Shown here: one piece after another, positions 1-14,690 of the stretch
How positions within the stretch are numbered: position 1 is the first letter of the stretch
Layout of the letters: each line of letters opens with the position of its first letter
NCBI GenBank assembly: GCA_031370785.1
Contig: JANMQY010000126.1
Coordinates: forward strand, 1-26,490
Reading direction: 5' to 3'
Length of the DNA: 26,490 bases
Source of the DNA: Candidatus Eiseniibacteriota bacterium
Lineage (GTDB): Bacteria > Eisenbacteria > RBG-16-71-46
Notes under the pieces: generated by a model
What the model was told of the DNA's origin: nothing
Seen by the model: the letters and a program-made list of their open reading frames with translations, nothing else
Databases searched by the model: none
Translations under genes and position numbers: made by a program

Positions 1-34
1 GCCAGGCCGACGCCGGCGTCTGTGCACCGACGCC

Positions 35-54
35 TGGTCGTCATTTGGTCGTCA
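35..54. repeat. Tandem 9-bp direct repeat TGGTCGTCA (11-bp period), candidate integrase arm-type sites
   Basis: TGGTCGTCA at 35-43 and 46-54, about 120 bp beyond the tRNA 3' end. This arrangement is typical of tyrosine-integrase att arms. Confidence 0.55.
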
Positions 55-99
55 GTTCCGCGACGTTTCCAGTCGCGAAATGGACGCTCCTGACGCGTG

Positions 100-130
100 A
101 AGAAGGGCGCCCCGGTTTCCCGGAACGCCC
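100..130 (-). terminator. Intrinsic terminator-like hairpin downstream of tRNA-Arg
   Basis: Minus strand reads GGGCGTTCCGG-GAAA-CCGGGGCGCCC-TTCTT: an 11-bp stem with two G.U pairs (fully paired only on the minus strand), a GNRA loop and a short T-rich tail. Confidence 0.65.
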
Positions 131-170
131 CGTGGCAGTGCATGAACAGCGGATTCTGCCCTGAAAAGGT

Positions 171-247
171 TGGTGGCCCCGGCTGGAGTCGAACCAGCGG
201 CACGCGGTTTAGGAAACCGCTGCTCTATCCGTCTGAGCTACGGGGCC
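171..247 (-). tRNA. trnR-CCT: tRNA-Arg, anticodon CCU, 77 nt, CCA encoded
   Basis: GGCCCCG/CGGGGCC acceptor stem, D arm GCTC..GAGC, anticodon arm GCGGT-TTCCTAA-ACCGC, T arm GCTGG-TTCGACT-CCAGC, ACCA end. Confidence 0.97.
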
Positions 248-258
248 ACGAGCCGGCG

Positions 259-287
259 ACTGTGTGCGATTGCTTCAGGTGGCGCAA
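259..287 (-). promoter_or_regulatory. Putative sigma70 promoter of the intact tRNA
   Basis: TTGCGC (287-282)-N17-CACAGT (264-259), 11 nt before tRNA +1. The same -35 and spacing recur at 4384-4412. Confidence 0.65.
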
Positions 288-456
288 GCGGGCTGCTCCG
301 TTACTTGAGGGACTTCGGAGCCCGCTTGCCGCGCCTCGGGAGCCGCCGGTTCGACGAACCGTCGCAACGGTTCAAGATCCTCCCGGGAGACGACAGCTTC
401 GGTCTCGGGCTGCTGGCCACTACGGTAGGACCGAACGCTCGTGACACCGGCACCTT

Positions 457-3400
457 TCATCGGCCGCTCGAGCGCCCCGAGGGTTTTGGCGTCGGTAGTT
501 CGGCCAGCACGCTCTCCACCTCTTTCGGCTCAGGTGGTTTGACGAAATGGTGGTTGAAGCCCGCTTCCGCCGTTCGCCGACGATCTTGTTGCTGGCCCCA
601 GCCCGTCAGCGCCGCCAGCACGACGTTCTCCAGGCCGGGCTGCTCCCTCATCCGGCGTGCGACCTCATAGCCGTCCATGCCGGGCATTCCGATGTCCAGG
701 AACACGACATCTGGCGCATAGCCCCGCGCCATCTCCAGCGCCGCCGGGCCGTTGTGCGCGACTCGCACCTCGTGGCCTTGCAGCCGGAGCAACATCGCGA
801 GACTGACGGCGGCGTCCTGGTTGTCATCTACGACCAGCAGCCGGTGACCGGAAGATCGAGCAGGCTCTTGTTGCGGTTCCCTGCATTCTCTTTCATTCGG
901 CTGACGAGGCTTGTCAACCATGAGCGGTAACCGCACGACGAACTCGCTGCCTTTGTCCGTCCCGTCGCTGCGCGCCTCGACGGTCCCGCCGTGCATCTCG
1001 ACGAGATTCTTCACGAGGGTCAGTCCGATACCCAGCCCGCCCTGCGCCTTCGTGGAAGCAGGGTCCACCTGGACGAACAACTCGAAGACGTGCGGGAGCA
1101 TGTCCGGTGCGACACCGATGCCGTTGTCTCGCACCCGCAACACCGCTTGATCGCCGTCTCGTTGAGCCGTCAGCCGAATGTGTCCGTTCGCCTCGGTATA
1201 TTTCGCTGCGTTCGTCAACAAGTTGCCGACGACCTGGGCCAGTCGGACTGGGTCGGCGTCCAGGAGCAGCGATTCGGACGGAAGGGAGAGTTCGAGCCGG
1301 TGTCCCTGGACCTCGATCAGCGGCTGGGCCGTCTCCACCGCGCGGGCGACCACGGTGGCCAATTCCACCGTCTCCTTGCGTAACTCGATCTTTCCCCGCA
1401 TGACACGCGACACGTCCAGCAGATCGTCCACGAGTCGGACGAGGTGGTGGACCTGACGCTCCATCATGTCCCTGGTTTTCTGGACCATCGCCGCATCGAC
1501 CCTCGGCATCTTGAGGATTTGAAGCGAATTGCGGATCGGGGCAAGCGGGTTGCGCAGCTCATGGGCCAACGTCGCCAAGAACTCGTCTTTGCGGCGGTCG
1601 GCATCCCGCAGCGCCTCTTCCATTCTCTTGATGTCGCTGATATCGGTGTTCGTCCCGAACCAGTAAAGGATGCGGCCGTTCTCGTCCCGCAGCGGATTGA
1701 CTCGTGTGAGGAAGGGATGGAATTGTCGGTCCACCCCCCTGAGAGGAAACACCATGTCGAACGGCTCGCCGCTGGCGATCGACCCCTTCCATCGCTCGAG
1801 CACTTTGGGCAGTACGTCCGGATCGTGCACGGACTGCCAGCCCCAGCCCTCCATTTGCTCCGGGGTGGTACCGGTGTACTCGTACCAGCGGCGGTTGTAC
1901 CAGAAGATGTGGCCGTCCGGCCTTGCCATCCATGCCAACTGCGGGATCGTATCCGCCATCAGCCGCAGCTTTTCTTCGCTCTCCCGCAGTGCGGCTTCGG
2001 CCCGCCTGCGGGCGGTGATGTCGTCGTGGACCAGTACGACCTCCCGGACCTTCCCGGCGTCGTCCTTGAGGGGGTAGGCGACGGCGGCGACCCACCGCAC
2101 CGGATCCTGGTGTCGGGTTTGGTTGGGGATCGTCTCATTGGGGTCGTACTCAATCGCCGGGATGAAGGCCGTCTCCCCGGCGAAGGCTTGTCGGATGTAC
2201 GAGAGAACACCTTTCGCCTCGAGCTGCTCGTCCGCCAGGATGTTGTACCCGTCTATCTGGTCGAGGGTGACGCCCCACAACTCCTCCCACGCCCGATTGA
2301 CCCGCACGGTGCGCCCGTCCGGTGCAAACACCTGCACGCTGAACGGGGCCTGTTCCATCAGCCCCCGGAACCTTCCCTCGCTCGCTCGCAAAGACTCTTC
2401 GAGGCGCCTGCGTTCGCTGATGTCCCGCAAATACGCCGTGAACAGCGGCGGACCGTCTGTCGGGATGCGCGTGATCGCCAGTTCCACGAGGAACTCCGTC
2501 CCGTCCGCACGCAAGGCGGGGAGTTCGAGTCGCTTGCCGAGGACCGGCCCTTCTCCGGTAGCGAGGTAATGCGCCATGCCCCGATGGTGGCTGTCCCGCA
2601 GTGAGGGCGGAATGATGAGATCGGCGAGCTCCTGGCCAACGACTTCGGCCCGGCTGTAGCCGAACGTCTTCTCCGCGGCGGGGTTGAACTCGACCACCTT
2701 GCCCTCGCGGTCCATCGTGATGATGCAGTCCAGCGCCGTTTCCAGAATCGCTGCTTTGCGGGCCTCGCTCGCGCGCAATTCGTTCTCGGACCGACGCTGT
2801 TCGGTCACATCCCTGAACACCAGGACCACGCCCGCCAGCGAGCCGGTTGCATCAAGAATGGGGGCAGCGGAGTCGTCGATCGGCCTCTCCGTGCCGTCTC
2901 TGGCGATCAGGACCGTGTGGTTGCCCAAGCCCACGACGCGGCCCTCTCGCAGGACTTCGATGACCGGATTCTCGACCGGAAGGCGAGTCTGCTCGTGGAG
3001 GACGTGGAATACCGTGGCGAGAGGTCGCCCGTGGGCGTCCTCCTGGCTCCAGCCCGTCAGGTCCTGGGCGACGGAATTCAGGAACGTGACACGGCCCTGG
3101 GGGTCCGTGGCGATGACGGCATCCCCGATGCTGGCCAGCGTCACCCGCAGCCACTCCTGCTCCCGCTGCCGACCCTGCTCGGCGGATTTCCGCTCGATAC
3201 CTAGGGCAACCCCGTTGGCGACCGACGACATGGCCCCGAGGGTGGAGTTCGACAGTTTGTGGCGTGAGAACATCGCCATGACGCCCACGAGCCGGTCTTC
3301 CACTACGAGCGGATAGCCAGCGAAGGCGACCATACCTTCCTTCTTGGCCCACTTCCGGTCGCTCACACGAGGATCGCTCTCGACCGCGTTGGTCAGGTGC

Positions 3401-4083
3401 GGCTGACGTTCCTGGGCGATCACCCCGATCTTGTACTTGCCGACCGGAACCCGACTATGCGGTCCATCCAGATGCGTGTATAGACCGGCGCTGGCCCGGA
3501 GTTCCAGCACGTTGTCCCGCGGATTGAGCGTCCAGACGCGTGCGAATGCCCCATCCAGATGTCGGACCATCGCCTCGGTGCAGTGGTGCAGCATTTCGGG
3601 GAGATCGTCGCTCTGGGTGAGGGCGAGGCCCACGTCCTTGATGAAGCCGGCGAGCCGGACTTGCTCCTCGATGTCGTCCTGATTCTGCTTCCACTCCGTC
3701 CGGTCCCGCATGATCTTGGCGAAACCCCTGAGCTTGCGGCTTTCGTCCCACAAGGGCGTCATCGTCCCGCCGCACCAGAAGCGGGAGCCGTCCTTGCGGA
3801 CGTGCCAGCGGTCGTCGTTTCCACGACCCTGCTCCAACGCCTGCTGCATCTCCCGTTGGGGAAAGCCCTTCTCAATGTCCTCCGGGGTAAAGAAGAGGGC
3901 AATGGAATGCCCGATCACTTCTGCTTCCCGATAACCGAGCAGCCGTTCGGCCCCTGGGTTCCAGCTTTCCACTCGGCCTTCCGGGTCGATGACGAAGATG
4001 GCGTAGTCCTGGACGTTTTCGGCGAGCAGCCGAAAGAGCTCGCCCTCCCGTGCCTCCTGCGCTTTCTGCTGTCGATCCGCCAT
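457..4083 (-). CDS. Multi-PAS/GAF hybrid sensor histidine kinase with C-terminal receiver domain (1208 aa)
   Basis: PAS-GAF-4xPAS; H-box FLATLAHELRNPL; N-box NLLTNAAKY; G-boxes DNGIG and GGLGIGL; receiver domain VVDDN...FLDIGMPGMDG...KP. Confidence 0.95.
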   Translation of the reverse strand: MADRQQKAQEAREGELFRLLAENVQDYAIFVIDPEGRVESWNPGAERLLGYREAEVIGHSIALFFTPEDIEKGFPQREMQQALEQGRGNDDRWHVRKDGSRFWCGGTMTPLWDESRKLRGFAKIMRDRTEWKQNQDDIEEQVRLAGFIKDVGLALTQSDDLPEMLHHCTEAMVRHLDGAFARVWTLNPRDNVLELRASAGLYTHLDGPHSRVPVGKYKIGVIAQERQPHLTNAVESDPRVSDRKWAKKEGMVAFAGYPLVVEDRLVGVMAMFSRHKLSNSTLGAMSSVANGVALGIERKSAEQGRQREQEWLRVTLASIGDAVIATDPQGRVTFLNSVAQDLTGWSQEDAHGRPLATVFHVLHEQTRLPVENPVIEVLREGRVVGLGNHTVLIARDGTERPIDDSAAPILDATGSLAGVVLVFRDVTEQRRSENELRASEARKAAILETALDCIITMDREGKVVEFNPAAEKTFGYSRAEVVGQELADLIIPPSLRDSHHRGMAHYLATGEGPVLGKRLELPALRADGTEFLVELAITRIPTDGPPLFTAYLRDISERRRLEESLRASEGRFRGLMEQAPFSVQVFAPDGRTVRVNRAWEELWGVTLDQIDGYNILADEQLEAKGVLSYIRQAFAGETAFIPAIEYDPNETIPNQTRHQDPVRWVAAVAYPLKDDAGKVREVVLVHDDITARRRAEAALRESEEKLRLMADTIPQLAWMARPDGHIFWYNRRWYEYTGTTPEQMEGWGWQSVHDPDVLPKVLERWKGSIASGEPFDMVFPLRGVDRQFHPFLTRVNPLRDENGRILYWFGTNTDISDIKRMEEALRDADRRKDEFLATLAHELRNPLAPIRNSLQILKMPRVDAAMVQKTRDMMERQVHHLVRLVDDLLDVSRVMRGKIELRKETVELATVVARAVETAQPLIEVQGHRLELSLPSESLLLDADPVRLAQVVGNLLTNAAKYTEANGHIRLTAQRDGDQAVLRVRDNGIGVAPDMLPHVFELFVQVDPASTKAQGGLGIGLTLVKNLVEMHGGTVEARSDGTDKGSEFVVRLPLMVDKPRQPNERECREPQQEPARSSGHRLLVVDDNQDAAVSLAMLLRLQGHEVRVAHNGPAALEMARGYAPDVVFLDIGMPGMDGYEVARRMREQPGLENVVLAALTGWGQQQDRRRTAEAGFNHHFVKPPEPKEVESVLAELPTPKPSGRSSGR

Positions 4084-4249
4084 GCTCGGTCACTCTTTAC
4101 GGGTGGGTCGATCTCGGGACTCCCAGCAGGGAGCCGGGCCTGGAAGCATGAGCGTCAATTGTACCGACCTGCCTGTAGGAGAGCCAGACGACGAGACGCC
4201 GCCGCTTGCTGATTTCCGCCCACTGCCGGACCAACTGTCATCGTCGTGG

Positions 4250-4332
4250 CGCGCGTCATGTGCCGCTTGCCCCACTCGCGCATGACCTCGGTGATGGGGG
4301 CGCAGCGTCTTGCCGCAGTCGGTCAGCGGTAC
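4250..4332 (-). pseudogene. C-terminal remnant of an HxlR-family winged-helix regulator
   Basis: Reads LTDCGKTLRP/ITEVMREWGKRH across a 1-nt frameshift in the G run at 4296-4300. Resembles the HxlR tail Y.LT..G..L.P....M..WG..H. Abuts the tRNA half. Confidence 0.6.
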
Positions 4333-4337
4333 ATCTC

Positions 4338-4377
4338 AGGAAACCGCTGCTCTATCCGTCTGAGCTACGGGGCCACG
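4338..4377 (-). repeat. tRNA-Arg 5' half copy (37 nt plus 3 nt leader); att-like direct repeat
   Basis: 40/40 identical to 211-250. Identity stops right after the anticodon CCT. Confidence 0.95.
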
Positions 4378-4383
4378 GGGGCG

Positions 4384-4412
4384 ACTATCATGCGCGTCAG
4401 GGCCATGCGCAA
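4384..4412 (-). promoter_or_regulatory. Putative sigma70 promoter in front of the tRNA half at 4338
   Basis: TTGCGC (4412-4407)-N17-GATAGT (4389-4384)-CGCC. Boxes are conserved with 259-287 while the spacer has diverged. Confidence 0.65.
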
Positions 4413-4460
4413 GCCGGATGGGATACGGTGTGACCGCTATGCAACGCTTGGGCAAACCCA

Positions 4461-7004
4461 TCACCGGGCCGTTTGCGAGCCGTACTTCGCCAGCAGCGCC
4501 TTGAACCGCGGGTGATCGCGGATCGGATCCCAGCGCGGGTCGAGGCGCAGCGTGTGGATGCTGAGGAAAGAGGGCCCCACCAGCAGCCGCTCGATCTCGT
4601 CGAGAGCCGCCTCGGCGTCGCCGGCTTGCGCGAGGATTCGCGCGCGATCCTCCGCGAGGAGCGGGCGGTCAAAAGCGTCCTCGCGATAGACCACCGATTG
4701 CTCCAGCCAATGGGCCTCTTGCAGCGCCTCGTCACAACGCCCGAGTCCGGCCACCGCCATGCCGCGGGCCGCATGCACGCGCCAGTCGTCCGGGAGTTCA
4801 CGGAGTGCGGAGTCCAGACGCGCACGGGCCGAATCGAATGCCGCATGCGCCGCCGAGTGGTCGCTGCGCAACTGGTGCGCCCAGGCGGAGTACAGGGCGC
4901 TTGGCAGGAAGAGATCCTGCACCTCGATGACGTCGGGGTGTGCGATCTCAAGATTCAGCAGGTCGGCGGCGTTCCGTTCCCAGAGCAGGAGATCAGCACG
5001 GTTAGGAACTTCGAGATCCGCGTCGATTGGGACTCGGTTCAGTGCCGCACGCAGCGGATCGAGCTGCCCCAGCCAGAGAACGTGCGTCCTTCCTCGCTGG
5101 AGCGCTGCGTCCTGCAGGTCCGGCGCGAGGCTCAGAGCCCGGTCGAACGCGCCGACGGCATCGGCGTAGCGGTGCAAGCGATTATAGATATTGCCCAGAT
5201 CCATGAACAGCGTTGCGCTACGCGGATCGAGCTGCGCGGCTTTCTCAAATGCAGCGAAGAGCGCGTTCCAGTCTCCCAGCCGGCGGTTCACAGCCCCTAT
5301 TCGCCACCAGAGCTCGGCGTCATTGGGCAGTCCCTTGAGCGCGATCGCGAACTCGTCCAACGCCCGGCGGTAGTCGCGGTAGCCCCAGTAGTGCGACAGG
5401 CCCATCGCGGCGTGGGCCTGTGGCAGGACGGGCGCGAGCCGTAGTGCAGCTTCAGCTCCCTCGCGCTGGCGCGTCGCTCGTGCCACCGAGGGATCGTATC
5501 GCCACCAGTACATCGCGCCATGCACCTGCGAGACTGCCGCGTGCGCGAGCGCGAAGTTGGGGTCCAGCCCCAGCGCTCGCTCGTAGAGTTGCTGCGCGAG
5601 CTCAAAGTTCTGACGGAGATAGCCGGGGCGGGTCCAGTACTCGCGCCCCTGTAGATACAACCGGTAGGCCTCAGCATTCGCCGAGGGCGCCGCCGCGAGC
5701 CTCCCCTGTTCGGCACTGGTCAGTGCAGCCCCCACCGCCGCCACGACCTGCTGCGCCACCTCGCTCTGGATCGCGAACGCATCGTCAAGCTTCCGGTCGT
5801 AGCGCTCCGCCCAGCGATGCGCGTCCGTCACCGCATCGATCAGCTGCACGGTCACCCGCAGCCGTCCGCCCACTACCTGCACGCTCCCCTCCACCACGCT
5901 CCCCACCCCCAGCTCAGTTGCGATTACCTTGAGCGGCTTGGACGTGCCGTGGTAGCCCATCACCGAGGTCCGGCTGATCACCTTGAGCGCCGCTACCTTC
6001 GCGAGCTGGGTCAGCAGTTCGTCGTGCAGCCCGCCCGCGAAGTACGCATGCGGCCCTTCGGCACTCAGGTTCTGGAACGGGAGTACGGCGATCGCGGTGC
6101 GCTCGAGCACCGGAATGGCCGGGGCCGGTGGCGCCATCGCGACGATCGTGGCCGCCGATATGGCGGCCGATTCCCGGTGGGCGAGCGCCTCGGCGAACAG
6201 CGCGACCGGGCTGAACCGGTCGGCGGGGGTCTTGGCCAGCGCCCGCTGCACCGCCAACGCCACCCAGCCCGGTACCGCTGGTCGCAGATCGGTCACCGGG
6301 CGTGGTACGACCGAGAGATGCTGGTACATGAGACTCTCGACGGTGGGCCCGGTGAACGGCGGCTGCCCCGCAAGCATTTCGTACAGCACGCAGCCCAGAG
6401 AGTAGAGATCGCATCGGCCATCCAGATCCCTGGAGCCGGCAGCCTGCTCCGGGCTCATATACGCAGGTGTTCCCAGCGCCAATCCCGTCGCCGTCAGCGC
6501 GCCACCGCCGGCCACCGTGATCGCCAGCGCGATCCCGAAATCCGCGACCACCGCGTGCCCGCTCTGCAACAGGATGTTCTCCGGCTTGATGTCCCGGTGG
6601 ACCAGATCGCGGCTGTGCGCGTAGCTCAGCGCGTCGGCGACCTCGCGGGCGATCTGCAGCGCGTCGTCGAGCGGGAGCTGCTTCTCACGCGTGAGCCTCC
6701 CCCGTAGCGACTCCCCCTCCACGTAGGGCATAACGTAGTAAAGGAATCCACCCGCCTCGCCGGAGTCATGGAGCGGCAGGATGTGGGGGTGGGTCAGGCG
6801 CGCTGCGGTTTCGATCTCGCGCAGGAACCGCTCGGGGCCGATCTCCGCGGCCAGCTCCGGGCGCAGCACCTTGAGCGCGACCTGGCGGCGGTGCCGGAGG
6901 TCCTCCGCGAGGAACACCACCGCCATGCCCCCTGCGCCCAACTCGCGATTGATGCGGTAGCGCGAGACCAGCGCTTCTTGGAGGCGTTCGAGCAGATCGG
7001 CCAT
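4461..7004 (-). CDS. Hanks-type Ser/Thr protein kinase with TolB-like domain and TPR repeats (847 aa)
   Basis: LGAGGMAVV, VALK, HRDIKPEN, DFG, GTPAYMSPEQ; IAVLPFQNLS TolB-like segment; TPR-like helices. Start chosen at ATG 7004 (MADLLERLQ) after GGAG. Confidence 0.93.
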   Translation of the reverse strand: MADLLERLQEALVSRYRINRELGAGGMAVVFLAEDLRHRRQVALKVLRPELAAEIGPERFLREIETAARLTHPHILPLHDSGEAGGFLYYVMPYVEGESLRGRLTREKQLPLDDALQIAREVADALSYAHSRDLVHRDIKPENILLQSGHAVVADFGIALAITVAGGGALTATGLALGTPAYMSPEQAAGSRDLDGRCDLYSLGCVLYEMLAGQPPFTGPTVESLMYQHLSVVPRPVTDLRPAVPGWVALAVQRALAKTPADRFSPVALFAEALAHRESAAISAATIVAMAPPAPAIPVLERTAIAVLPFQNLSAEGPHAYFAGGLHDELLTQLAKVAALKVISRTSVMGYHGTSKPLKVIATELGVGSVVEGSVQVVGGRLRVTVQLIDAVTDAHRWAERYDRKLDDAFAIQSEVAQQVVAAVGAALTSAEQGRLAAAPSANAEAYRLYLQGREYWTRPGYLRQNFELAQQLYERALGLDPNFALAHAAVSQVHGAMYWWRYDPSVARATRQREGAEAALRLAPVLPQAHAAMGLSHYWGYRDYRRALDEFAIALKGLPNDAELWWRIGAVNRRLGDWNALFAAFEKAAQLDPRSATLFMDLGNIYNRLHRYADAVGAFDRALSLAPDLQDAALQRGRTHVLWLGQLDPLRAALNRVPIDADLEVPNRADLLLWERNAADLLNLEIAHPDVIEVQDLFLPSALYSAWAHQLRSDHSAAHAAFDSARARLDSALRELPDDWRVHAARGMAVAGLGRCDEALQEAHWLEQSVVYREDAFDRPLLAEDRARILAQAGDAEAALDEIERLLVGPSFLSIHTLRLDPRWDPIRDHPRFKALLAKYGSQTAR

Positions 7005-7228
7005 CTGCGTCTCGCTCCAATCCGGGCTACGGCCAGTCCCGAGGGGGTTCTGAGGCGGGACCGCGTCGGTTGAGGCGCACCAGCGCATGCGCCATTTCGG
7101 ATCGGAGGGCCCACCACGTGGTGGAATGGGCTGACGAAACGACGCGCGAGCGTAGCACGGCGTCACGAGGGAACCAATGCGCGAGGATCAGAACTCCCAC
7201 TGGCGCTCCGGATCTCTGCCTGTCGACC

Positions 7229-7347
7229 GTCCCGCGCGCGTCGTGGCCGCGGCGCTCGAAGTGCGCAACGATGCGCCCAATCGCCCCCGGCTCGATCACG
7301 GACGCGACGATTCGCATCTCACGGCCGCAGCGCGGGCAGCGTTCCAC
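7229..7347 (-). pseudogene. C-terminal remnant of an IS91-family-like (Y2) transposase
   Basis: CPRCGREMRIVASVIEPGAIGRIVAHF matches the C..CG..M.I...I.....I..IL.H tail of these transposases. No upstream body. Confidence 0.6.
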
Positions 7348-7395
7348 CCCATCCTGATGGACCTGGGCGCGCGTAGTTCTCGTCCATGCCGTAGG

Positions 7396-7467
7396 TCTCT
7401 TATTGGTACTGCCGCGCAAACCTTGAGCCATTCCCACCCGCAACTAGCGGTGCGGAAGAGCGCCCAT
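7396..7467 (+). pseudogene. Possible degenerate tyrosine-integrase C-terminal remnant
   Basis: SLIGTAAQTLSHSHPQLAVRKSAH resembles the box II tail (..V...LGH......T.RY.H) with both G and Y altered. Points toward the arm repeats and the tRNA half. Confidence 0.3.
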
Positions 7468-7493
7468 CGATTCGAGAGACCGCTGCTCTCGCC

Positions 7494-7597
7494 GGCTACG
7501 GTGGCTACGGTCTCATCGTCCATTCAGGTCCGGCGCAGTCTAGCGCAGTCCATAGACACGAAGCGCTCCACCGTCAGCATCCCGATGGAGCGCTTCG
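7494..7597. repeat. att-arm-like cluster: GGCTACGGT x2, GCGCAGTC x2 and a 12-bp perfect inverted repeat
   Basis: GGCTACGGT at 7494-7502 and 7503-7511; GCGCAGTC at 7533-7540 and 7543-7550; CGAAGCGCTCCA 7559-7570 / TGGAGCGCTTCG 7586-7597. Confidence 0.65.
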
Positions 7598-7665
7598 CAA
7601 TACATTCTCGCGACGTTCGTTGACTCGCTCGACTCGAATTCCTTCGATTGTCGTCCGGCCTCGTC

Positions 7666-7707
7666 AGGAAACCGCTGCTCTATCCGTCTGAGCTACGGGG
7701 CCACGAG
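7666..7707 (-). repeat. tRNA-Arg 5' half copy (37 nt plus 5 nt leader); att-like direct repeat
   Basis: 42/42 identical to 211-252. Breaks after the anticodon at the same base as the 4338 copy. Confidence 0.95.
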
Positions 7708-7712
7708 GCCAC

Positions 7713-7740
7713 AAGATAGCGCACTCAGTTCAACGGTGAA
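7713..7740 (-). promoter_or_regulatory. Putative promoter in front of the tRNA half at 7666
   Basis: TATCTT (7718-7713) lies 10 nt before tRNA +1; TTCACC (7740-7735) at 16-nt spacing. Confidence 0.45.
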
Positions 7741-7789
7741 ATCAAGCGTGCACGCGGTCCACCAGACCGCGGTCTCGTCGCCGATGGCC

Positions 7790-10447
7790 TCAGAAATCCT
7801 CGAGCATCCAGATGTTTCCCTGACCCGTGTTGCTCGTGTATGCGACCCGCTTGCCATCGCGCGAGACGGCCGCGGAGTACATCCACATCTGCGGTGGGAT
7901 CAGAGCTGACGTCCGACCGCGGGCATCGACGTGCAGGAGCCGCCACTGCTCACCGGCCTGGACAATGAGCCAGGAGCGCCCGTCGGAACCGTAAGCGAGG
8001 TTTGCGATCTGGACGGGTCGGTCGAGCCGGATTTCGTGGGGCGGGGCACCACTCGTTGAGAGCATGCGGATGCGCGGAATGGAATCTTGAGACGGGACGA
8101 CCATTGCGATGGTCGAGCCGTCGGGCGAGAGGTCCCACATCAGTTGCTCGTGTCCTTCCGCGCGCGACAGTTCCCGGCCACGTCCTCGCACCGGATCGAA
8201 CGCCGAGAAGATCGCGGAGCCGTTCTGAAGCTCACAGAGCACGGGAGACGTTCCGGTCGCCTGCGGAGATCGAAACGACGCGATGCCTTGGGCGTCGAGC
8301 ACCTTCTCGGCGGGGCCGCCGGCGACCGGGACTCGCATGAGTCGCCCGTTCGCCGGGGCCTTACCCGGGCCTACCGCGTCCTCCTCCCTATAGAGGATCC
8401 ACGCCCGGTCTGGGCTCAGTTGCGGCGAGTACTGGTCTCCCGGGCTGGTCACCAGGGGGTCCGCGACGGCGGCGCCGATCCGCTGCCGGAAGATGTCAAA
8501 CGTGCCATTGCGATCGGAACTGAAAACGATCGTCGAATCATCGGGCATCCAAGCCGGCATCATATCCATGCGATCGTCGAGCGTCACACGTCGGATATCT
8601 TGAAGCAGTGCCCCGGCCGCGGCCATACGTCCCACGTAAATGTCACTCTGGTATTCCAGAACGACGACTGACAGTCGCTTGCCGTTCGTGGAGAATGCGG
8701 TGGGCTCCACCAGCGCGAGGCGCTGCCACTGGGTGATACGCCGCGGACTCCCCGATGGAACTCCCGAGCGCGGATCGACCCGCAGCGACCATAAGTTCAT
8801 GTCGCGCTGGTTGGGCGGCGGATCGGTGAGGCCGAAGACCACCCGTCCATCGGGCAGCCACGCAGGGATCGTATAGAAGTGGAGGGGCCGGTCGGTCGCT
8901 GGAGAGTAAAAGACGCGGGTCCGCCCCGCGAGGTCACAGCTTTCGAGTCGGAGGGTCTGCGCTCCCATGTCGGCACGGCCGTAGCCCAGTCGTTTCCCGT
9001 TCGGCGACCAAACGGCCCACGCGGGAATCACTCCACTGGAATCGTCGCCGGTCACACGCCGGGCGTCCTCGCCGCTTACCCCGGAGACCCAGATCTCAGA
9101 GCCGCGCACCCCACGCCGCTTATAGGCGATGTGCGTGCCATCCGGGGAGAGAACCGCGAACGACGCATCGTCGAGCACCTTGTGCGTGCGGCCGCCGGCC
9201 ACGGGCAGCGTCCACACGGCCGGCCGGCCGTCAGCCATGCGACCGCTGACGAGGAGTTGACTCCCATCCGGAAACCAGTTGATCTGGGGAATCGGATAGT
9301 CGAGCGTCAACCCCGCTGGGAGTTCCATGGGATGGCTCTCGCCGCTCTCGATGGAACGAAACGAAAGACCGCTGCGGTCCACGATTGCCAGAGTCTTGCC
9401 GTCAGGCGAGATATCTCCCGTCAACACCGGGTTGCCGGCGGGGTTCGAGGTCAGTTGCCGCTGCTTGAGTTCGGGAGAAGCCGCCGACTGCCGACGCACA
9501 TACCAGACCACCACGATCGCTGCGGCCAGCGCCAGCACCGTCATCGCGACCGGTAGAACTCGCGACGCTTTGATTGCGGGAGCCGCGGTGGTTGCAGATT
9601 CTCCCGATTGCAGGGCTTCAAGCGCCGCGCGCACCTCGCTGGCTCGCTGGTAGCGCTCCCCGGGCTCCTTCGACAGGCAACGCCCGACAACAGCCCGCAG
9701 CCCCGCCGGGACGCGATCTGGCAGCCCCGTCGGGATGTCATTCATGATCGCCGACGCCAGCTCGAAGCTCGTGGTTCCCCTGAACGGCAGAGTCCCGCTC
9801 GCCATCTCGTGCAGCAGCACCCCCAGCGCCCACAGGTCGCTCCGCTCGTCCGCCATTCCCCCGTGCAATACCTCCGGCGCGAGATAGTGCGGCGTCCCAA
9901 CGACCGCGCCGGTCTCGGTGAGCGCCATGCTCAGGGTGGCGCCGCTTTCATGCGGCGATTCTCGGGCGCGCCGCGCGAGGCCGAAGTCCAGCACCTTCAC
10001 CCGTCCGTCCGCCGTGACCGCCACGTTCGAGCTCTTGAGATCGCGGTGGATCACGTGCCGCTCATGCGCGTGCGCCAGCGCCGATGCGATCTGCGCTCCG
10101 TAGCGCGTAACGTTCTCGATGGGAAAGCCCGTGGGGCGCTCGGCGATCATGTCGCTCAGTGGCTGGCCCTCGATCAGCTCCATCGTGAGGTAGACGTGCC
10201 CATCGGCCTCGCCCACCTCATGCACGGTGCAGATGTTCGGGTGGTTGAGCGTCGCCGCGAGCCGCGCTTCACGCAGCAGCCGAGCGCGGGCCGTTTCGTC
10301 GTGCAACGACTCGGTGGGCAAGACCTTGACGGCGACTTCACGCCCGAGCTTGGGGTCGCGCGCACGGTACACCTCGCCCATGCCGCCGGCGCCGAGCGGG
10401 GCGAGGATCTCGTAGGGGCCCAAGTGAGTGCCTGCGGTCAACGGCAT
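7790..10447 (-). CDS. Ser/Thr protein kinase with one TM helix and TolB/PD40-type beta-propeller (885 aa)
   Basis: LGAGGMGEV, VAVK, HRDLKSSN, DFG, GTPHYLAPE; TM VLPVAMTVLALAAAIVVVWYV; repeated SPDG motifs. Start MPLTAGTHLGPY at 10447. Confidence 0.93.
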   Translation of the reverse strand: MPLTAGTHLGPYEILAPLGAGGMGEVYRARDPKLGREVAVKVLPTESLHDETARARLLREARLAATLNHPNICTVHEVGEADGHVYLTMELIEGQPLSDMIAERPTGFPIENVTRYGAQIASALAHAHERHVIHRDLKSSNVAVTADGRVKVLDFGLARRARESPHESGATLSMALTETGAVVGTPHYLAPEVLHGGMADERSDLWALGVLLHEMASGTLPFRGTTSFELASAIMNDIPTGLPDRVPAGLRAVVGRCLSKEPGERYQRASEVRAALEALQSGESATTAAPAIKASRVLPVAMTVLALAAAIVVVWYVRRQSAASPELKQRQLTSNPAGNPVLTGDISPDGKTLAIVDRSGLSFRSIESGESHPMELPAGLTLDYPIPQINWFPDGSQLLVSGRMADGRPAVWTLPVAGGRTHKVLDDASFAVLSPDGTHIAYKRRGVRGSEIWVSGVSGEDARRVTGDDSSGVIPAWAVWSPNGKRLGYGRADMGAQTLRLESCDLAGRTRVFYSPATDRPLHFYTIPAWLPDGRVVFGLTDPPPNQRDMNLWSLRVDPRSGVPSGSPRRITQWQRLALVEPTAFSTNGKRLSVVVLEYQSDIYVGRMAAAGALLQDIRRVTLDDRMDMMPAWMPDDSTIVFSSDRNGTFDIFRQRIGAAVADPLVTSPGDQYSPQLSPDRAWILYREEDAVGPGKAPANGRLMRVPVAGGPAEKVLDAQGIASFRSPQATGTSPVLCELQNGSAIFSAFDPVRGRGRELSRAEGHEQLMWDLSPDGSTIAMVVPSQDSIPRIRMLSTSGAPPHEIRLDRPVQIANLAYGSDGRSWLIVQAGEQWRLLHVDARGRTSALIPPQMWMYSAAVSRDGKRVAYTSNTGQGNIWMLEDF

Positions 10448-10578
10448 CGCGTCAATCTGCCTCAAGCACTTGAAGGATAGAAGGCTGCATGCTCGCGATG
10501 GAGACGGTGTCGCCGATGTCGCCCCAAAGAACCGTGACCACCGAGTAGGGAGTAGGGACCGCCGCTCAGACCGCCGAA

Positions 10579-10597
10579 CCACGAGCCGGCGACTGTG
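10579..10597 (-). repeat. 19-bp copy of the tRNA -10 box/leader
   Basis: CCACGAGCCGGCGACTGTG identical to 246-264. Confidence 0.8.
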
Positions 10598-10598
10598 C

Positions 10599-10881
10599 CT
10601 ATTCGACGACCATCCGGGATGACTTTCGTTGCCCTCGCGCGTTCAACGAATAGAAATAGATACCCGCCGGCACCTGGCGTCCGCGGTCGTCGCGGCGGTT
10701 CCACAGGGCTGAATGCTGACCCGAGGGCAAGAACCCGTCAGTCCGCCCTGCTCACGGGATCCGACGCATCCGTTGTGAAGCTGTACCGGTGAATCAACCC
10801 GGCTTCAGAAACATGCTGAAAGAACGAGTTGGAAAGCGCGACAAGAACCAGACAGAGCAGGATCTTTCTCGGAACGGCCAT
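10599..10881 (-). pseudogene. Internally deleted secreted protein: signal peptide and LamG-like start fused to a FlgD-Ig-type C-terminal tail
   Basis: RBS AGAGG, then MAVPRKILLCLVLVALSNSFFQHVSEAGLIHRYSFTTDASD (stop at 10738). Another frame continues DGFLPSGQHSALWNRRDDRGRQVPAGIYFYSLNARGQRKSSRMVVE*. Not in the ORF track. Confidence 0.7.
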
Positions 10882-11076
10882 GTGAAGACCTCTTTCTCAC
10901 GCGAGTGGTCGCGCTCAGACGAAGAGCCGTCTCGTGGCTGCAGGTGTAGCGGTTGTGTCCCAGGTGACGATGGCGCCGACGCAAGAACTGGAGCTCCTTT
11001 CGAGGTCGCAGGACCAGAGAATAGATCCCGTGGGGCCATTCCCTTACCCATTTCTTGCGATCCGCTTGCCCCGCTG

Positions 11077-11630
11077 ACGAGAACGCCGAGGTGCGCGAGC
11101 GGCGCGACCAGTTCCGGCATCCGCGCTACGCAGCACCCGAGATGCTCGCCACGCGGCCGAACGAGCTCTGGAGCTGGGACATCACGCGACTGCTGGCCCC
11201 ACCAAGTGGACCTACTACTACCTCTACGTGGTGCTCGACGTGTTCAGCCGCTATGCGGTGGGCTGGATGCTGGCGCAGCGCGAGTCCGCGGCGCTCGCTG
11301 AGAAGCTGATCGCCGAGAGCTGCGAGCGGCAGCGCATCGTACCGGGACAGCTCACCGTGCACGCCGACCGTGGCGCGGCGATGATCTCGAAGCCCGTCGC
11401 GCTGCTGCTGGCCGACCTCGGCGTCACCAAGAGCCACTCGCGGCCGCACGTCTCGAATGACAACCCGTTCTCCGAGTCGCAGTTCAAGACGATGAAGTAT
11501 CGGCCCGACTTCCCCGAGCGCTTCGGCTCGATCGAACATGGGCGCAGCTTCGCAGCCGACTTCTTCCGCTGGTACAACCACGAACACCATCATGTCGGGC
11601 TCGGGCTGTTCACGCCGAACGACGTGCATC
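11077..11630 (+). mobile_element. IS3-family transposase (rve core) pseudogene, truncated at both ends
   Basis: PNELWSWDIT / frameshift near 11197 / YLYVVLDVFSR, HADRG, SRPHVSNDNPFSESQFKTMKY, WYNHEHHH. No OrfA and no terminal IRs seen. Confidence 0.85.
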
Positions 11631-11776
11631 CGCCGGGAGGCGATCGGGCGTGGTAGCATGAAAGTCTCGCTGGACAGGCCGTCCCACGCCCCTTGCCTCG
11701 GCGAAATCATCGGGTCGAACGCGTGCCACGACCGGCCTGTGCCGTCGAGATGACTTTCCAAAGTTAGGATGACCGC

Positions 11777-12766
11777 ATGACTTCATGGCTCAAGCTGTTC
11801 TGGACTACGCTGGCCATCCTCGGCTTCGCAGCCATCCTGCCCGCGCCAGTCGGGGCGCAGTGTCCCGCCTACCTCACCCAGTGGGGCTCGCTCGGTAGCG
11901 GCAGTGGGCAGTTCCAAGATGCCTACGGAGTGGCGACAGACGTCGCGGGCAACGTCTACGTCGCGGACACCGGCAACCACCGCATCCAGAAGTTCAGCGG
12001 CACCGGCGCCTATCTCACTCAGTGGGGCTCTCCTGGCAGCGGCGACGGACAGTTCAACAATCCCAGGGGAGTGGCGACGGACGCCGCCGGCAACGTCTAC
12101 GTCGCGGACAACTTCAACCACCGCATCCAGAAGTTCAGCGGCACCGGCACGTACCTCACCCAGTGGGGCTCGTACGGCAGCGGTGATGGGCAGCTCACCT
12201 ATCCCTTCGGAGTGGCGACCGACGGCACCGGCGTCGTCTATGTCGCGGACCAGTACAACCACCGCATCGAGAAGTTCACCGACACCGGCACCTACCTCGC
12301 CCAGTGGGGCTCGTCCGGAAGTGGCGCCGGGCAGTTCAACTATCCCCTCGGAGTGGCGACCGACGCCGTCGGCGACGTCTATGTCGCGGACACCTACAAC
12401 CACCGCATCCAGAAGTTCACCGGCACCGGCACGTACATCACCCAGTGGGGCTCGTATGGCAGCAGTTCTGGACTGTTCGCCTATCCCCTCGGAGTGGCGA
12501 CCAACGCCGCCGGCGACGTCTTCGTCACGGACGCCGACAACTTCCGCATCCAGAAATTCACCAGCACCGGCTCTTACTCGTGCGAGTGGGGCTCGCTGGG
12601 AAGCGGCAATGGGCAGTTCAACCAGCCCAGTGCCGTGACGACGGACGCCGTCGGCGACGTATACGTCACGGAGAAATTTGGCAACCACCGCATCCAGAAG
12701 TTTCACCACACGGCGACGCCCACAAAGACCTCGACCTGGGGACGGCTTAAGAGCCTCTACCGGTGA
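11777..12766 (+). CDS. Secreted NHL-repeat six-bladed beta-propeller protein (329 aa)
   Basis: Signal peptide; six 47-aa repeats (QWGS.GSG.GQF..P.GVATD..G.VYVAD..NHRIQKF); C-terminal TPTKTSTWGRLKSLYR. Confidence 0.93.
   Translation: MTSWLKLFWTTLAILGFAAILPAPVGAQCPAYLTQWGSLGSGSGQFQDAYGVATDVAGNVYVADTGNHRIQKFSGTGAYLTQWGSPGSGDGQFNNPRGVATDAAGNVYVADNFNHRIQKFSGTGTYLTQWGSYGSGDGQLTYPFGVATDGTGVVYVADQYNHRIEKFTDTGTYLAQWGSSGSGAGQFNYPLGVATDAVGDVYVADTYNHRIQKFTGTGTYITQWGSYGSSSGLFAYPLGVATNAAGDVFVTDADNFRIQKFTSTGSYSCEWGSLGSGNGQFNQPSAVTTDAVGDVYVTEKFGNHRIQKFHHTATPTKTSTWGRLKSLYR
11879..12700 (+). repeat. 141-bp intragenic tandem repeat, 6 copies
   Basis: (C/G)AGTGGGGCTC at 11879, 12020, 12161, 12302, 12443 and 12584. 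Confidence 0.9.
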
Positions 12767-12978
12767 TCTGGAGTGACGGGCGTCAACGACGCAGTCGGGG
12801 CGATTGGGTTCGCTCACGAGGCCACTAGTTCACAGTCGCTGTTCAGTAAATCTATGAAGCCAGTGTCTCAAAGTCGTTGACAGATTCCGAAGGCTCGAGT
12901 GTGAACAACCTCCTGAGACTTCACACCTAGAGGCAACGACGAGGAGTTCGGCGGGCCCGTCGCCACTGCGATCCTCAT

Positions 12979-13329
12979 TTACCGTCTATTACGAAGCAGC
13001 CTCAAGACTCCCCTGACGCCGTAGAAGATTCCAGCGCCCCAGAGGAAGCTGTTCCCGCCAATCCAGAATTGGACGGCCAGCCGCCTCCAGCCGTAGTTCC
13101 CTGGTCCGAAGGGTCCGAAGATTGCGTCGTGGATGGTCACCAAAGGAAAGCCAAGGACACTCTTCCAGGCCTCCGCGCCTGGCACTAGCGGGGGCTCGCC
13201 GGCGCCGGGCTCGCTAAGCGAGACCGCGATGTAGGAGCCGACAAAATGAAGCAAGGTCACGACCGCGATCAGCACGTGCATCCCAGACCACACTCTCCTT
13301 CCCTTCGCCGGTCGAGATTTGCTGGTCAT
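12979..13329 (-). CDS. Small hypothetical membrane protein (116 aa)
   Basis: RBS-like AGGGG; two or three hydrophobic segments; no family recognised. Confidence 0.7.
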   Translation of the reverse strand: MTSKSRPAKGRRVWSGMHVLIAVVTLLHFVGSYIAVSLSEPGAGEPPLVPGAEAWKSVLGFPLVTIHDAIFGPFGPGNYGWRRLAVQFWIGGNSFLWGAGIFYGVRGVLRLLRNRR

Positions 13330-13424
13330 AAGCCCCTACCGAAGTGCCCGATGGACATGAGTCTTCCCACCTCTCGCATCACCGCCTCATCCGACAACCT
13401 CGCGTACCGGATCGCGACGCGCTC

Positions 13425-13530
13425 TCACCGCCTCGTGAACTTGAGGTGCACCACCCCGGGCGCCGCGACCGTTTCGCACCAGCTCGAGACCGTGCAGGTT
13501 GGTGCCGACGCTTCACCGGAAGAGCCATCG
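13425..13530 (-). pseudogene. C-terminal remnant of a dihydrofolate reductase/RibD-C family protein
   Basis: LF..VGTNLHGLELVR / TVAAPGVVHLKFTRR* across frameshifts. Confidence 0.55.
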
Positions 13531-13571
13531 ATCGGCCGATCCTCCCCTCGCGGAGGCCGCGCCACTCGACC

Positions 13572-14156
13572 TCACTGGCCGAGCCCAATTTGCTTCATGA
13601 ACTCCCCGTTGTCCCAGAACAGGAACTCCTCGAACATGATGCCCTCCTTGTTCCAATGGCCGATGGTCGCCATCGGAATCCGGTAGGCCTTGCCGGTCGG
13701 CTCGATGGTCTTGCCGTCCGCGAGAACCATGGGTTTGGTGAAGGTGCCTTCGAGCCAGCCGGTGACCGCAGTCCATTGACCATCCTGAGTACCGAAACGG
13801 ATCGGATGCTCCTTGATCCGATTGTCGGGCGCGAACGTCCACATGTACTTCAGATCCTCAATGTGTTTTTCGATTCCCTGCGTCGTGTGGCCATCTGGCC
13901 AGTGAACGATGACGTCCTTGGTATGGGACTTGTGGAGATCCTGCCACTGCTGGTTCGTGTACACGCGAAAGTCGAGGTCATCGAAGTTCGCCAGGTTCTT
14001 CGCGAGCACGGCTGGCATGCCTGGAACCTTGGTAGTCGGCCCACCGACCTTGGTGCCGGGCCACTTGTCACTCTCCGCGGCCCCTGCCAGGCCGAACATG
14101 AAGCTCCCGAAAACCATGCAGAGTGCGACGCCGGAAACACGCGTCTTCCAGGTCAT
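13572..14156 (-). CDS. Secreted SnoaL-like ester cyclase family protein (194 aa)
   Basis: RBS AAGGAG; signal peptide; FDDLDF...VHWPDGHTT.G...GTFT.PM...PTGK...EEFLFWD. Confidence 0.88.
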   Translation of the reverse strand: MTWKTRVSGVALCMVFGSFMFGLAGAAESDKWPGTKVGGPTTKVPGMPAVLAKNLANFDDLDFRVYTNQQWQDLHKSHTKDVIVHWPDGHTTQGIEKHIEDLKYMWTFAPDNRIKEHPIRFGTQDGQWTAVTGWLEGTFTKPMVLADGKTIEPTGKAYRIPMATIGHWNKEGIMFEEFLFWDNGEFMKQIGLGQ

Positions 14157-14252
14157 GACTGGCTCCTTTCTTCGGTCGCTCACGACCGATAGACTTTCCA
14201 CCCGCCGAAGATCACGCGACGACCTCTGAGACTCGACAACGGACTGAACCCG

Positions 14253-14690
14253 TCAGCCGATCCGCTCCGCAAGCTCGATGATGATTCCCTCCGGGCCGCG
14301 GACGTAGCAGAGCCGATAGATGTCCTTGTAGCGCTCCAGCTCGCCGACGAGTTCAGCGCCGCGGGCTCGCAGGCCGGCAACGACGGCGTCGATGTCCTCG
14401 ACGGCCAATGCGATGTGGCGGATACCCGGGGTGTTGGCCGGCGCGTGCCGGTTGTCGCCCTGGCTTGGCGGCGAATGGAATTTCGCGAGCTCGAGTCGTC
14501 CGTTGCCGTCCGGAGTTTGCATCATCGCAATGTCCGCCCGTACGCCCTCGAGCCCCACGATCCGGTCCACGCATCGGCCCGAGACGGGCATCTCGCCCTG
14601 CAGCACGAGTCCGAGCTCGACGAAGAATTCGATCGCGGCCGCGAGGTCGTCAACCACGATGCCGACGTGGTCCATCCGTTGGACAGCCAT
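14253..14690 (-). CDS. VOC/glyoxalase family protein (145 aa)
   Basis: MDHVGIVVDDL, RLEL, GIRHIA, YVRGPEGIIIELAE. Confidence 0.92.
   Translation of the reverse strand: MAVQRMDHVGIVVDDLAAAIEFFVELGLVLQGEMPVSGRCVDRIVGLEGVRADIAMMQTPDGNGRLELAKFHSPPSQGDNRHAPANTPGIRHIALAVEDIDAVVAGLRARGAELVGELERYKDIYRLCYVRGPEGIIIELAERIG

What the first reader, a model, noticed from the sequence alone, without database searches (positions are those of the whole stretch)
171..10597. Tandem array of single-gene modules delimited by tRNA-Arg 5' halves
Seen: the intact tRNA (171-247) is preceded by two exact 5'-half copies (4338-4377, 7666-7707) that break at the same base, just after the anticodon, and by a leader remnant (10579-10597). 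Each interval holds one intact large signalling gene, co-oriented with the tRNA. No intact integrase is present. Established: tRNA-targeting tyrosine integrases usually duplicate the 3' part of the gene, and the anticodon loop is a known crossover sub-site. Inference: elements here carry promoter plus 5' half in attP, insert at the anticodon loop and push the old 5' half upstream. This builds an integron-like stack of signalling cassettes, either mobilised in trans or left by decayed islands.
Basis: partly seen in the sequence, partly recalled or inferred. Interest (0 to 1): 0.88.

Follow-up and report, generated by a model that had tools for sequence, protein, structure and literature searches.

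The report
Shuffled signalling cassettes upstream of tRNA-Arg
Three signalling genes sit in a row in front of an arginine tRNA gene, separated by copies of the tRNA's front half; related bacteria carry the same kind of gene units, and two of the same genes in the opposite order, which points to a reversed, largely integrase-free version of ordinary tRNA-site integration that may let these bacteria collect and shuffle genes.

Summary
Observation confirmed. The two 5' halves and the leader remnant are exact. The crossover is best read as the 7-nt anticodon loop, with both copies carrying one mismatch. The junction at 7666 is flanked by two conserved recombination arms: profiles built only from relatives hit it at E 1e-27 and 7.5e-13. 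Such halves occur in at least 20 of 88 same-family genomes. Of 51 complete units, 45 show no integrase. One end type, with a tRNA-mimic site 95 bp from the loop, had no integrase next to it in 38 of 38 cases. Orthologues of the histidine kinase (87%) and distal kinase (91%) lie in another genus's array in the opposite order. Mobilisation in trans is inferred, not shown, and two of the three junctions here are decayed. 5'-side tRNA islands and tandem accretion are published; this scan also noted similar arrays on other DNA. Verdict: new variant of a known kind.

The parts
171..247 (-). Intact tRNA-Arg(CCT); its anticodon loop TTCCTAA (215-209) is the inferred 7-bp crossover
   Evidence: 5' halves end at nt 39 and 3' halves begin at nt 33 in relatives
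248..332 (-). Right end of the proximal unit, A-type: putative promoter (TTGCGC, 17 nt, CACAGT) and leader
   Evidence: A-end profile from relatives, E 2.9e-5, best hit in the genome. Promoter inferred from position; not flagged by the consensus scan
34..131 (-). Hairpin (105-131) and direct repeats (34-53) downstream of the tRNA; possible arm of a further element running off the contig
   Evidence: weak: Y-arm profile E 3.4; hairpin z -2.6; coordinates
457..4083 (-). Cargo 1: hybrid histidine kinase, PAS-GAF-PAS-HisKA-HATPase-REC, 1208 aa
   Evidence: Pfam; 87% identical gene between two halves in G141
4158..4335 (-). Decayed reading frame abutting half 1; no conserved arm. An hxlR-like 3' end is my recalled resemblance only
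   Evidence: translation; not confirmed; no hairpin, z -0.6
4336..4377 (-). 5' half copy 1 (tRNA nt 1-39 with loop TTCCTGA, plus 3 nt of leader)
4378..4437 (-). Own leader and putative promoter of copy 1 (TTGCGC, 17 nt, GATAGT), with a degenerate core half-site
   Evidence: read from the sequence; no A- or B-profile hit
4461..7004 (-). Cargo 2: Ser/Thr kinase with TPR repeats, 847 aa from ATG 7004
   Evidence: 70% identical gene as a two-armed cassette in L244
7240..7404 (-). C-terminal remnant of an ISCR-family transposase
   Evidence: NCBIfam NF052416, E 3.5e-7, profile 440-493 of 509; Pfam Y2_Tnp not hit
7468..7663 (-). Left arm (X-type) after half 2: hairpin 7560-7596, direct repeats 7494-7510, distal core-like half-site 7468-7488
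   Evidence: X-arm profile built without the window, E 1.1e-27; hairpin z -4.6
7664..7707 (-). 5' half copy 2 (tRNA nt 1-39 with loop TTCCTGA, plus 5 nt of leader)
7708..7790 (-). Right end, B-type: tRNA-mimic 'site 2' (GCGGT-N7-ACCGC, 7770-7754) 95 bp from the loop, then putative promoter and leader
   Evidence: B-end profile built without the window, E 7.5e-13; spacing
7790..10447 (-). Cargo 3: Ser/Thr kinase with PD40/TolB-like propeller, 885 aa from ATG 10447
   Evidence: 91% identical gene with the same B end in G141, 90.6% nt in G142
10579..10597 (-). Leader remnant (19 nt identical to the intact tRNA's leader plus GG): decayed junction
11228..11656 (+). IS3-family transposase fragment
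13347..13409 (-). 21-residue C-terminal remnant of a tyrosine integrase of the cognate family, co-oriented with the tRNA
   Evidence: tblastn E 2.6e-4 and 7.8e-4

Best explanation
The array was built by repeated site-specific integration into the anticodon loop of tRNA-Arg(CCT) by a tyrosine integrase, in the reversed polarity. Each incoming circle carries right arm + promoter + leader + 5' half + loop + left arm. Crossover in the 7-bp loop gives the tRNA a new promoter and 5' half and leaves the old half upstream, so the newest unit is nearest the tRNA. Autonomous parents are small Xis+Int(+Rep) elements with A-type ends. Most units carry no integrase; those with B-type ends, such as cargo 3, most likely move with integrase supplied in trans. 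Site 2 is probably an accessory integrase-binding site nine helical turns from the crossover. Junctions then decay by deletion, as at 4338 and 10579. Shown: repeats, arms, parents, variable order. Inferred: the reaction itself, supply in trans, the role of site 2, the promoters.
For: Halves end at nt 39 and 3' fragments start at nt 33, overlapping by exactly the loop. A circular phage contig carries integrase, leader and nt 1-39 with no 3' half. L033 and L205 have arm, cargo, HTH_17, PF00589 and A end between a half and the tRNA. Arm profiles trained without the window have their best genome hit at the 7666 junction. Of 51 complete units, 45 have no integrase match, and 13 of the 16 with both arms have none. 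An integrase or remnant lies within 1.5 kb of 14 of 22 A ends and 0 of 38 B ends; without training sites 8 of 13 and 0 of 28. Site 2 lies 94-96 bp from the loop in 31 of 41 anchored B ends, with a variable spacer. Cargo 3 with its B end lies directly before the intact tRNA in G141 (93% nt) but is the third unit here, and the order of cargo 1 and 3 is reversed. Cargo is patchy: 3, 9 and 2 of 88 family genomes, and not found in the one same-genus genome, 88% complete.
Against: No excised circle or empty site of these units was seen. The four runs laid are contigs, and none listed bridges a half. Only one of three junctions in the window has both arms. The cargo 1 orthologue in G141 is followed by an integrase remnant and an A end, which is what decay of an autonomous island looks like. 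Cargo 1 in G111 and cargo 2 homologues in seven genomes show no half or arm in the DNA held. The candidate helper integrase on C25 is cut by the contig edge (78 aa seen). Integrase absence rests on tblastn with this family plus Pfam scans of the larger ORFs only. Kin are not independent, so the A/B contrast overstates significance. The promoters fail the consensus scan.
Confidence: 0.65

Rival explanations
1. Same integration mechanism, but the integrase-free units are dead remnants (CIMEs) of islands that lost their integrase in place. They move, if at all, only in cis with a neighbour or by homologous recombination, so the stack is a graveyard and not a cassette system.
For: Integrase C-terminal remnants are common in these arrays (4 of 51 units partial; window 13347-13409). 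Two of three junctions here are decayed. The three-step decay and accretion model is published (PMC5704250, passages). Cargo homologues also occur away from the tRNA.
Against: 0 of 38 B ends have even a remnant of integrase. Arms keep their hairpin (z -2.3 to -6.1 in 19 of 19 arms folded), repeats and spacing across genera. Units of 0.6-3 kb with both arms recur. Orthologous units change position between genera with their ends attached.
Confidence: 0.27
2. Site 2 is itself a second crossover site, so cargo is loaded into or swapped within a minimal arm-promoter-half carrier.
For: Site 2 copies tRNA nt 23-32 and 40-49 around a different spacer, and conservation falls to background at its left edge. 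Some X arms end in a matching half-site; in L186 it continues into a degenerate tRNA 3' part. In G141 cargo 3 has site 2 on both sides; one contig in run X2 shows the same upstream arrangement.
Against: The 7-nt spacer is highly variable, which does not suit homology-dependent strand exchange (established knowledge of lambda-type integrases, recalled). Many X arms and the Y arms lack the distal half-site. The upstream copy in G141 may be a decayed B end of the previous unit.
Confidence: 0.12
3. The halves arose from whole-tRNA duplications later trimmed, or from misassembly.
For: This genome has two full tRNA-Arg(CCT) genes. No laid contig bridges the halves.
Against: Halves stop at the same loop across genera and phyla, have different leaders and are followed by conserved arms. 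54 of 60 contig-end overlaps are 141 nt, which suggests an assembly k far longer than the 40-42 nt repeats (inference).
Confidence: 0.03

Closest known systems
tRNA-gene islands with a displaced 5' fragment (Islander, Hudson et al., PMC4383910; Zhao and Williams 2002, seen only as a citation in PMC1635311 and PMC6563490)
   Same: Tyrosine integrase, anticodon-loop subsite, 5' fragment upstream and co-oriented. Islander lists 159 such islands among 3919.
   Different: Islander requires an integrase in each island and in each member of a tandem, and at least 2 kb. Here 45 of 51 units have no integrase match and many are 0.6-3 kb, so they would be filtered out.
CIMEs and tandem accretion at ICE/IME att sites (PMC5704250, passages)
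   Same: Integrase-free units that keep att sites, stacked by later integration at the gene-bearing end.
   Different: The tRNA example in the passages read is at a 3' end, and CIMEs are defined as decayed ICE/IMEs. Here the stack is on the 5' side, each unit brings a promoter, and one end type has no integrase remnant in 38 cases.
Tycheposons of Prochlorococcus (bioRxiv 10.1101/2020.12.28.424599, passages)
   Same: Elements stack at a tRNA, separated by partial tRNA copies, newest nearest the gene; remnants accumulate distally.
   Different: Most tycheposons carry their own recombinase (474 of 501). No integrase-free two-armed cassette class appears in the passages read.
Klebsiella islands upstream of arg2 (bioRxiv 10.1101/2020.11.02.365908, passages)
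   Same: Integration upstream of a tRNA-Arg gene with a 5' repeat.
   Different: The crossover is in the D-loop region and the islands are integrase-bearing.
Integrons
   Same: A polar array of mostly single-gene, recombinase-free units whose order varies.
   Different: No IntI (L205 integrase scores 51.5 bits against a cut-off of 265) and no attC. The platform is a tRNA gene and each unit carries two phage-type arms.
Phage HP1 integrase system
   Same: Best solved-structure match of the L205 integrase (1aih, E 3.5e-14). That HP1 targets a tRNA anticodon loop and has accessory core-like sites in attP is recalled; my search for it found no paper.
   Different: A prophage with its own integrase; no cassette array known to me.

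Membership tests
tDNA island with 5' fragment (Islander) | Co-oriented 5' tRNA fragment upstream of the intact gene | tested here: met
tDNA island with 5' fragment (Islander) | Crossover at a known subsite (anticodon loop) | tested here: met
   5' halves to nt 39, 3' halves from nt 33; one mismatch in both window copies
tDNA island with 5' fragment (Islander) | Integrase gene inside each island | tested here: not met
   no PF00589 hit on C49; only a 21-aa remnant outside the three units
CIME / accretion array | No integration or transfer genes, tandem position at one att site | tested here: met
CIME / accretion array | Both att sites retained | tested here: inconclusive
   one junction complete; unit 1 lacks a left arm, unit 3 keeps only 19 nt at its left end, unit 2's right end has no profile hit
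CIME / accretion array | Derived by decay from an autonomous element | tested here: inconclusive
   integrase remnant beside the cargo 1 orthologue in G141; none at 38 B ends
CIME / accretion array | Mobilised in cis by an adjacent element | not testable with these tools
   needs excision and transfer assays
Integron | IntI-family integrase | tested here: not met
   TIGR02249: 51.5 bits (L205) and 45.6 bits (C25 downstream integrase), cut-off 265
Integron | attC sites between cassettes | tested here: not met
   Rfam scan of 1-14500 found only the tRNA and one weak unrelated match; the boundaries are tRNA halves
Tycheposon | Own tyrosine recombinase and replication module at the tRNA-proximal end | tested here: not met
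   absent from the three units; a related layout is seen only in parents such as L205

The most novel reading that the evidence does not exclude
B-ended units are a dedicated family of non-autonomous cassettes, not decay products. They replace the arm-type repeats of the parent elements with a copy of the tRNA's own anticodon arm placed nine helical turns from the crossover, borrow integrase from helper elements or phages, and shuffle kinases and other cargo between genera. The tRNA gene then works as a self-renewing integron-like platform, and may be an entry route for the signalling kinases of this phylum.
Probability: 0.4. Interest if true: 0.8.

Novelty: new variant of a known kind. Interest (0 to 1): 0.6.

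Why it matters
Island finders that require an integrase miss these units, so a common route of gene gain may be under-counted. The family gives defined, testable parts: an integrase, an excisionase, two arm types and a target of 39 bp. These allow a direct test of whether integrase-free islands at tRNA genes are dead remnants or a working cassette system, a question left open for CIME-type arrays. If supply in trans holds, minimal ends of about 100 and 200 bp that insert cargo without breaking the tRNA would be a compact integration tool. The enrichment of signalling cargo (9 of 51 units carry a Ser/Thr kinase) suggests one way in which such kinases spread.

Tried and rejected
Serine recombinase as the agent: PF07508 not found in the genome, 100% complete by markers but in 147 contigs. 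hxlR identity of 4158-4335: not confirmed. Y2_Tnp in Pfam: no hit; the ISCR call rests on NCBIfam, with a weak Atlas lead (0.90, 19% of members). Promoter/terminator scan: counts as in shuffles, and none of the proposed sites flagged. Expression: no RNA holder listed. Read support: four contig-only runs laid, no listed record bridges a half; uninformative. Link between C49 and C25: no contig-end overlap. Covariation count on the arm hairpin: alignment A1 was out of register, so arms were folded singly. Integrase tree: the upstream-type integrases are not shown to be one clade (2 changes; one change in 16% of bootstrap trees). The 300-aa cassette protein of G012 as a hidden recombinase: only hypothetical-protein clusters. 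The cargo 3 query was out of frame; redone. Native empty site: not identified; the distal part of the window also looks accessory. Literature: nine searches found no description of this family; the library lacks most subscription papers, and Zhao and Williams 2002 was not held. No supplements were read.
Full report
1. Observation. The window is the whole contig C49 of a 3.44-Mb assembly in 147 contigs. ARAGORN finds one tRNA, Arg(CCT), at 171-247 on the minus strand. Exact repeats are 211-250 = 4338-4377, 211-252 = 7666-7707 and 246-264 = 10579-10597; chance expectations in the window are 8e-18 and 1.3e-6. The three cargo genes are a hybrid histidine kinase (457-4083), a Ser/Thr kinase-TPR (4461-7004) and a Ser/Thr kinase-PD40 (7790-10447). 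The genome has 12 such Ser/Thr kinase matches, two of them in this 10.4 kb (Poisson 6e-4, post hoc).

2. Where the break is. Both copies read TTCCTGA against the loop TTCCTAA. In relatives, 5' halves mostly run to nt 39 and a 3' fragment starts at nt 33, so the two kinds overlap by exactly the 7-nt loop. In a scan of 206 genomes of the class, 20 of 88 same-family relatives and 2 of 41 in one other family have a broken half; the reversed-pattern control gave 0. The pattern is strict, so this is a lower bound. Of the 32 non-own matches, 24 continue through TTCCTAA, 5 read TTCCTTC, 2 TTCCTAG and 1 TTCCTGG. Halves also occur in Acidobacteriota records.

3. The ends are conserved. I built four DNA profiles from relatives, leaving the window out: left arms X and Y (after the loop) and right ends A and B (before the leader). 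Their best hits in the genome are 7639-7469 for X (E 1.1e-27), 7790-7705 for B (E 7.5e-13) and 332-248 for A (E 2.9e-5); Y hits C49 only weakly (E 3.4). Half 2 is thus a complete right-end/half/left-arm junction. Left arms hold a hairpin (z -2.3 to -6.1 in the 19 arms folded, -4.6 here) and short direct repeats; the DNA after half 1 has neither (z -0.6). On 124 metagenome loci not used for training, 96 of 125 halves with enough downstream DNA have an X or Y hit, and 73 of 130 have an A or B hit upstream, at E below 0.05. B ends begin with a copy of the tRNA's anticodon arm around a different, variable spacer; it lies 94-96 bp from the loop in 31 of 41 anchored cases (46 B ends collected).

4. 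The parents. An 84.7-kb viral contig has a 127-nt terminal repeat; read as a circle it runs PF00589 integrase, leader, tRNA nt 1-39, then non-tRNA DNA. A second viral contig with terminase has an integrase 50% identical to the cognate family directly before a half. In L033 and L205 a unit of 6.3 and 4.3 kb between a half and the tRNA carries X arm, cargo, HTH_17, integrase and A end; L205 also has a rolling-circle-type Rep. This genome's contig C25 has a second full tRNA-Arg(CCT) with an integrase C-terminus reading into it from upstream (78 aa, cut by the contig edge) and another reading into it from downstream. In a tree of 21 rows the downstream-type integrases of this family form one branch (97/97; four labelled rows and one unlabelled); the upstream type is unresolved. 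So related integrases use the same loop in both polarities.

5. Most units have no integrase. Among 51 complete units (half to half, or half to tRNA; the window's two included, a few from Acidobacteriota), 2 have a full integrase, 4 a remnant and 45 none. Median length is 2,645 bp (623-8,578). 16 have both arms, 13 of them without integrase, and 9 carry a Ser/Thr kinase. An integrase or remnant lies within 1.5 kb upstream of 14 of 22 A ends, 0 of 38 B ends and 6 of 134 unclassified sites; without training sites, 8 of 13 and 0 of 28. Detection used tblastn with this family; Pfam scans of selected ORFs found no other site-specific recombinase in B-ended units, though one holds an IS core fragment. 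Other cargo includes HEPN/nucleotidyltransferase pairs, a TIR/TPR-S pair, regulators and secreted proteins.

6. The window's own units move. Cargo 1 has an 87% identical orthologue between two halves in G141, another genus. Cargo 3 is 91% identical over the 387 residues held on the same G141 contig. Its 3' part and B end (93% nt) lie on a second G141 contig directly before the intact tRNA; in G142 the same gene and end precede a half. Joining the two G141 contigs across a gap of about 75 bp inside the gene is my inference; the order cargo 1 then cargo 3 is already seen on one contig. Here the order is cargo 3, cargo 2, cargo 1, tRNA, so it is reversed. A similar swap is seen between G012 and L244, where a 1.2-kb unit is 90% identical. 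Cargo 2 has a 70% identical two-armed counterpart in L244. Against exclusive use of this route: cargo 1 in G111 and cargo 2 homologues in seven genomes have no half or arm in the DNA held.

7. Mechanism. Shown: repeats, arms, parents with leader and 5' half, variable content and order. From established knowledge of tyrosine integrases: strand exchange over a 7-bp overlap between inverted core sites, here the anticodon loop and stem. Inferred: each insertion renews the tRNA promoter; the arm hairpin may stop transcription from the displaced half; site 2, 95 bp or nine turns away, is an accessory binding site; B-ended units use integrase in trans. In the window only the 7666 junction is intact. 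Half 1 abuts decayed coding DNA, and at 10579 only the leader remains. I put 0.9 on reversed site-specific integration, and about 0.65 on it together with cassette movement in trans.

8. What is known. Islander (main text read, parts 1-2 of 3) counts 159 of 3919 islands with a 5' fragment and requires an integrase in each. PMC6563490 (passages)' recombination considerably less frequent and notes that arrays at one site are known. PMC5704250 (passages) describes CIME accretion. The tycheposon and Klebsiella preprints (passages) describe stacking at tRNAs and islands upstream of arg2. PMC1635311 was seen for a reference only. Nine searches found no account of this family or of a tRNA-mimic accessory site; coverage is limited. 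This scan's notes list 10 findings in at least 9 genomes with all my search words and further ones; they are unchecked and are not support. No note matched this DNA.

9. Verdict. A real feature and a new variant of a known kind: 5'-side, promoter-replacing accretion at a tRNA. What is new here is a defined end type that was found only on integrase-free units, and orthologous signalling units in changed order between genera. Interest 0.6; 0.8 if supply in trans is shown.

Noticed in passing
L001:248-324 (G000:C25): Second full tRNA-Arg(CCT), differing by one compensatory T-stem pair, between converging integrases. It faces a contig start while the window's tRNA faces a contig end, so one element carrying a whole tRNA could link them; or they are separate loci or strains.
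   Followed up: partly
L036:12206, L042:10339, L076:674: Halves that stop at the CT of the anticodon share about 300 bp of following DNA (80-83%), and in L036 and L042 an IS110 transposase follows: apparently an IS110 element that inserts in the anticodon of these halves.
   Followed up: partly
L044:3831, L045:10773, L047:9666, L314:8405, L315:9710: Halves that abut the 3' end of a convergent gene ending at or near the loop; possibly integration at secondary sites, or deletions that end at the core.
   Followed up: partly
L051:7139 and L318:11427: Integrase-free units on the 3' side of the same tRNA, bounded by 3' halves from nt 33; L051 has a site-2 motif 62 bp before the loop.
   Followed up: partly
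L306:16361-16443, L040:8089, window 10579: Junctions where half and arm are deleted and the tRNA promoter or leader is left just before a kinase start codon; the promoter might then drive the cargo.
   Followed up: no
L186:3405-3209: A half and X arm followed directly by a degenerate tRNA nt 22-77 with a changed loop, suggesting that site 2 derives from a tRNA fragment.
   Followed up: partly
L322 (G000:C124:56000-66000) and L321: Three tRNA-Ser genes, one defective, with a Y-like arm after tRNA-Ser(CGA); X-like arm matches about 14 kb away with no tRNA-Arg half. Related arms serve other sites in this genome.
   Followed up: no
window 11777-12766: NHL-repeat protein with 141-nt repeats and paralogues on C103; its C-terminus resembles a sorting tail seen in this phylum (recalled).
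   Followed up: no
window 10582-10707: Short frame ending at the leader remnant that resembles the C-terminus of an FlgD-like Ig tail (recalled; no Pfam hit).
   Followed up: partly
window 15317-16408 and 22813-24480: A class A-like beta-lactamase family gene (PF13354) and a third Ser/Thr kinase in the distal accessory region.
   Followed up: no
L035:13470-14372: 300-aa protein of no known family, sole cargo of a 1.2-kb unit found at 90% identity in two arrays; nearest Atlas clusters are hypothetical proteins.
   Followed up: partly
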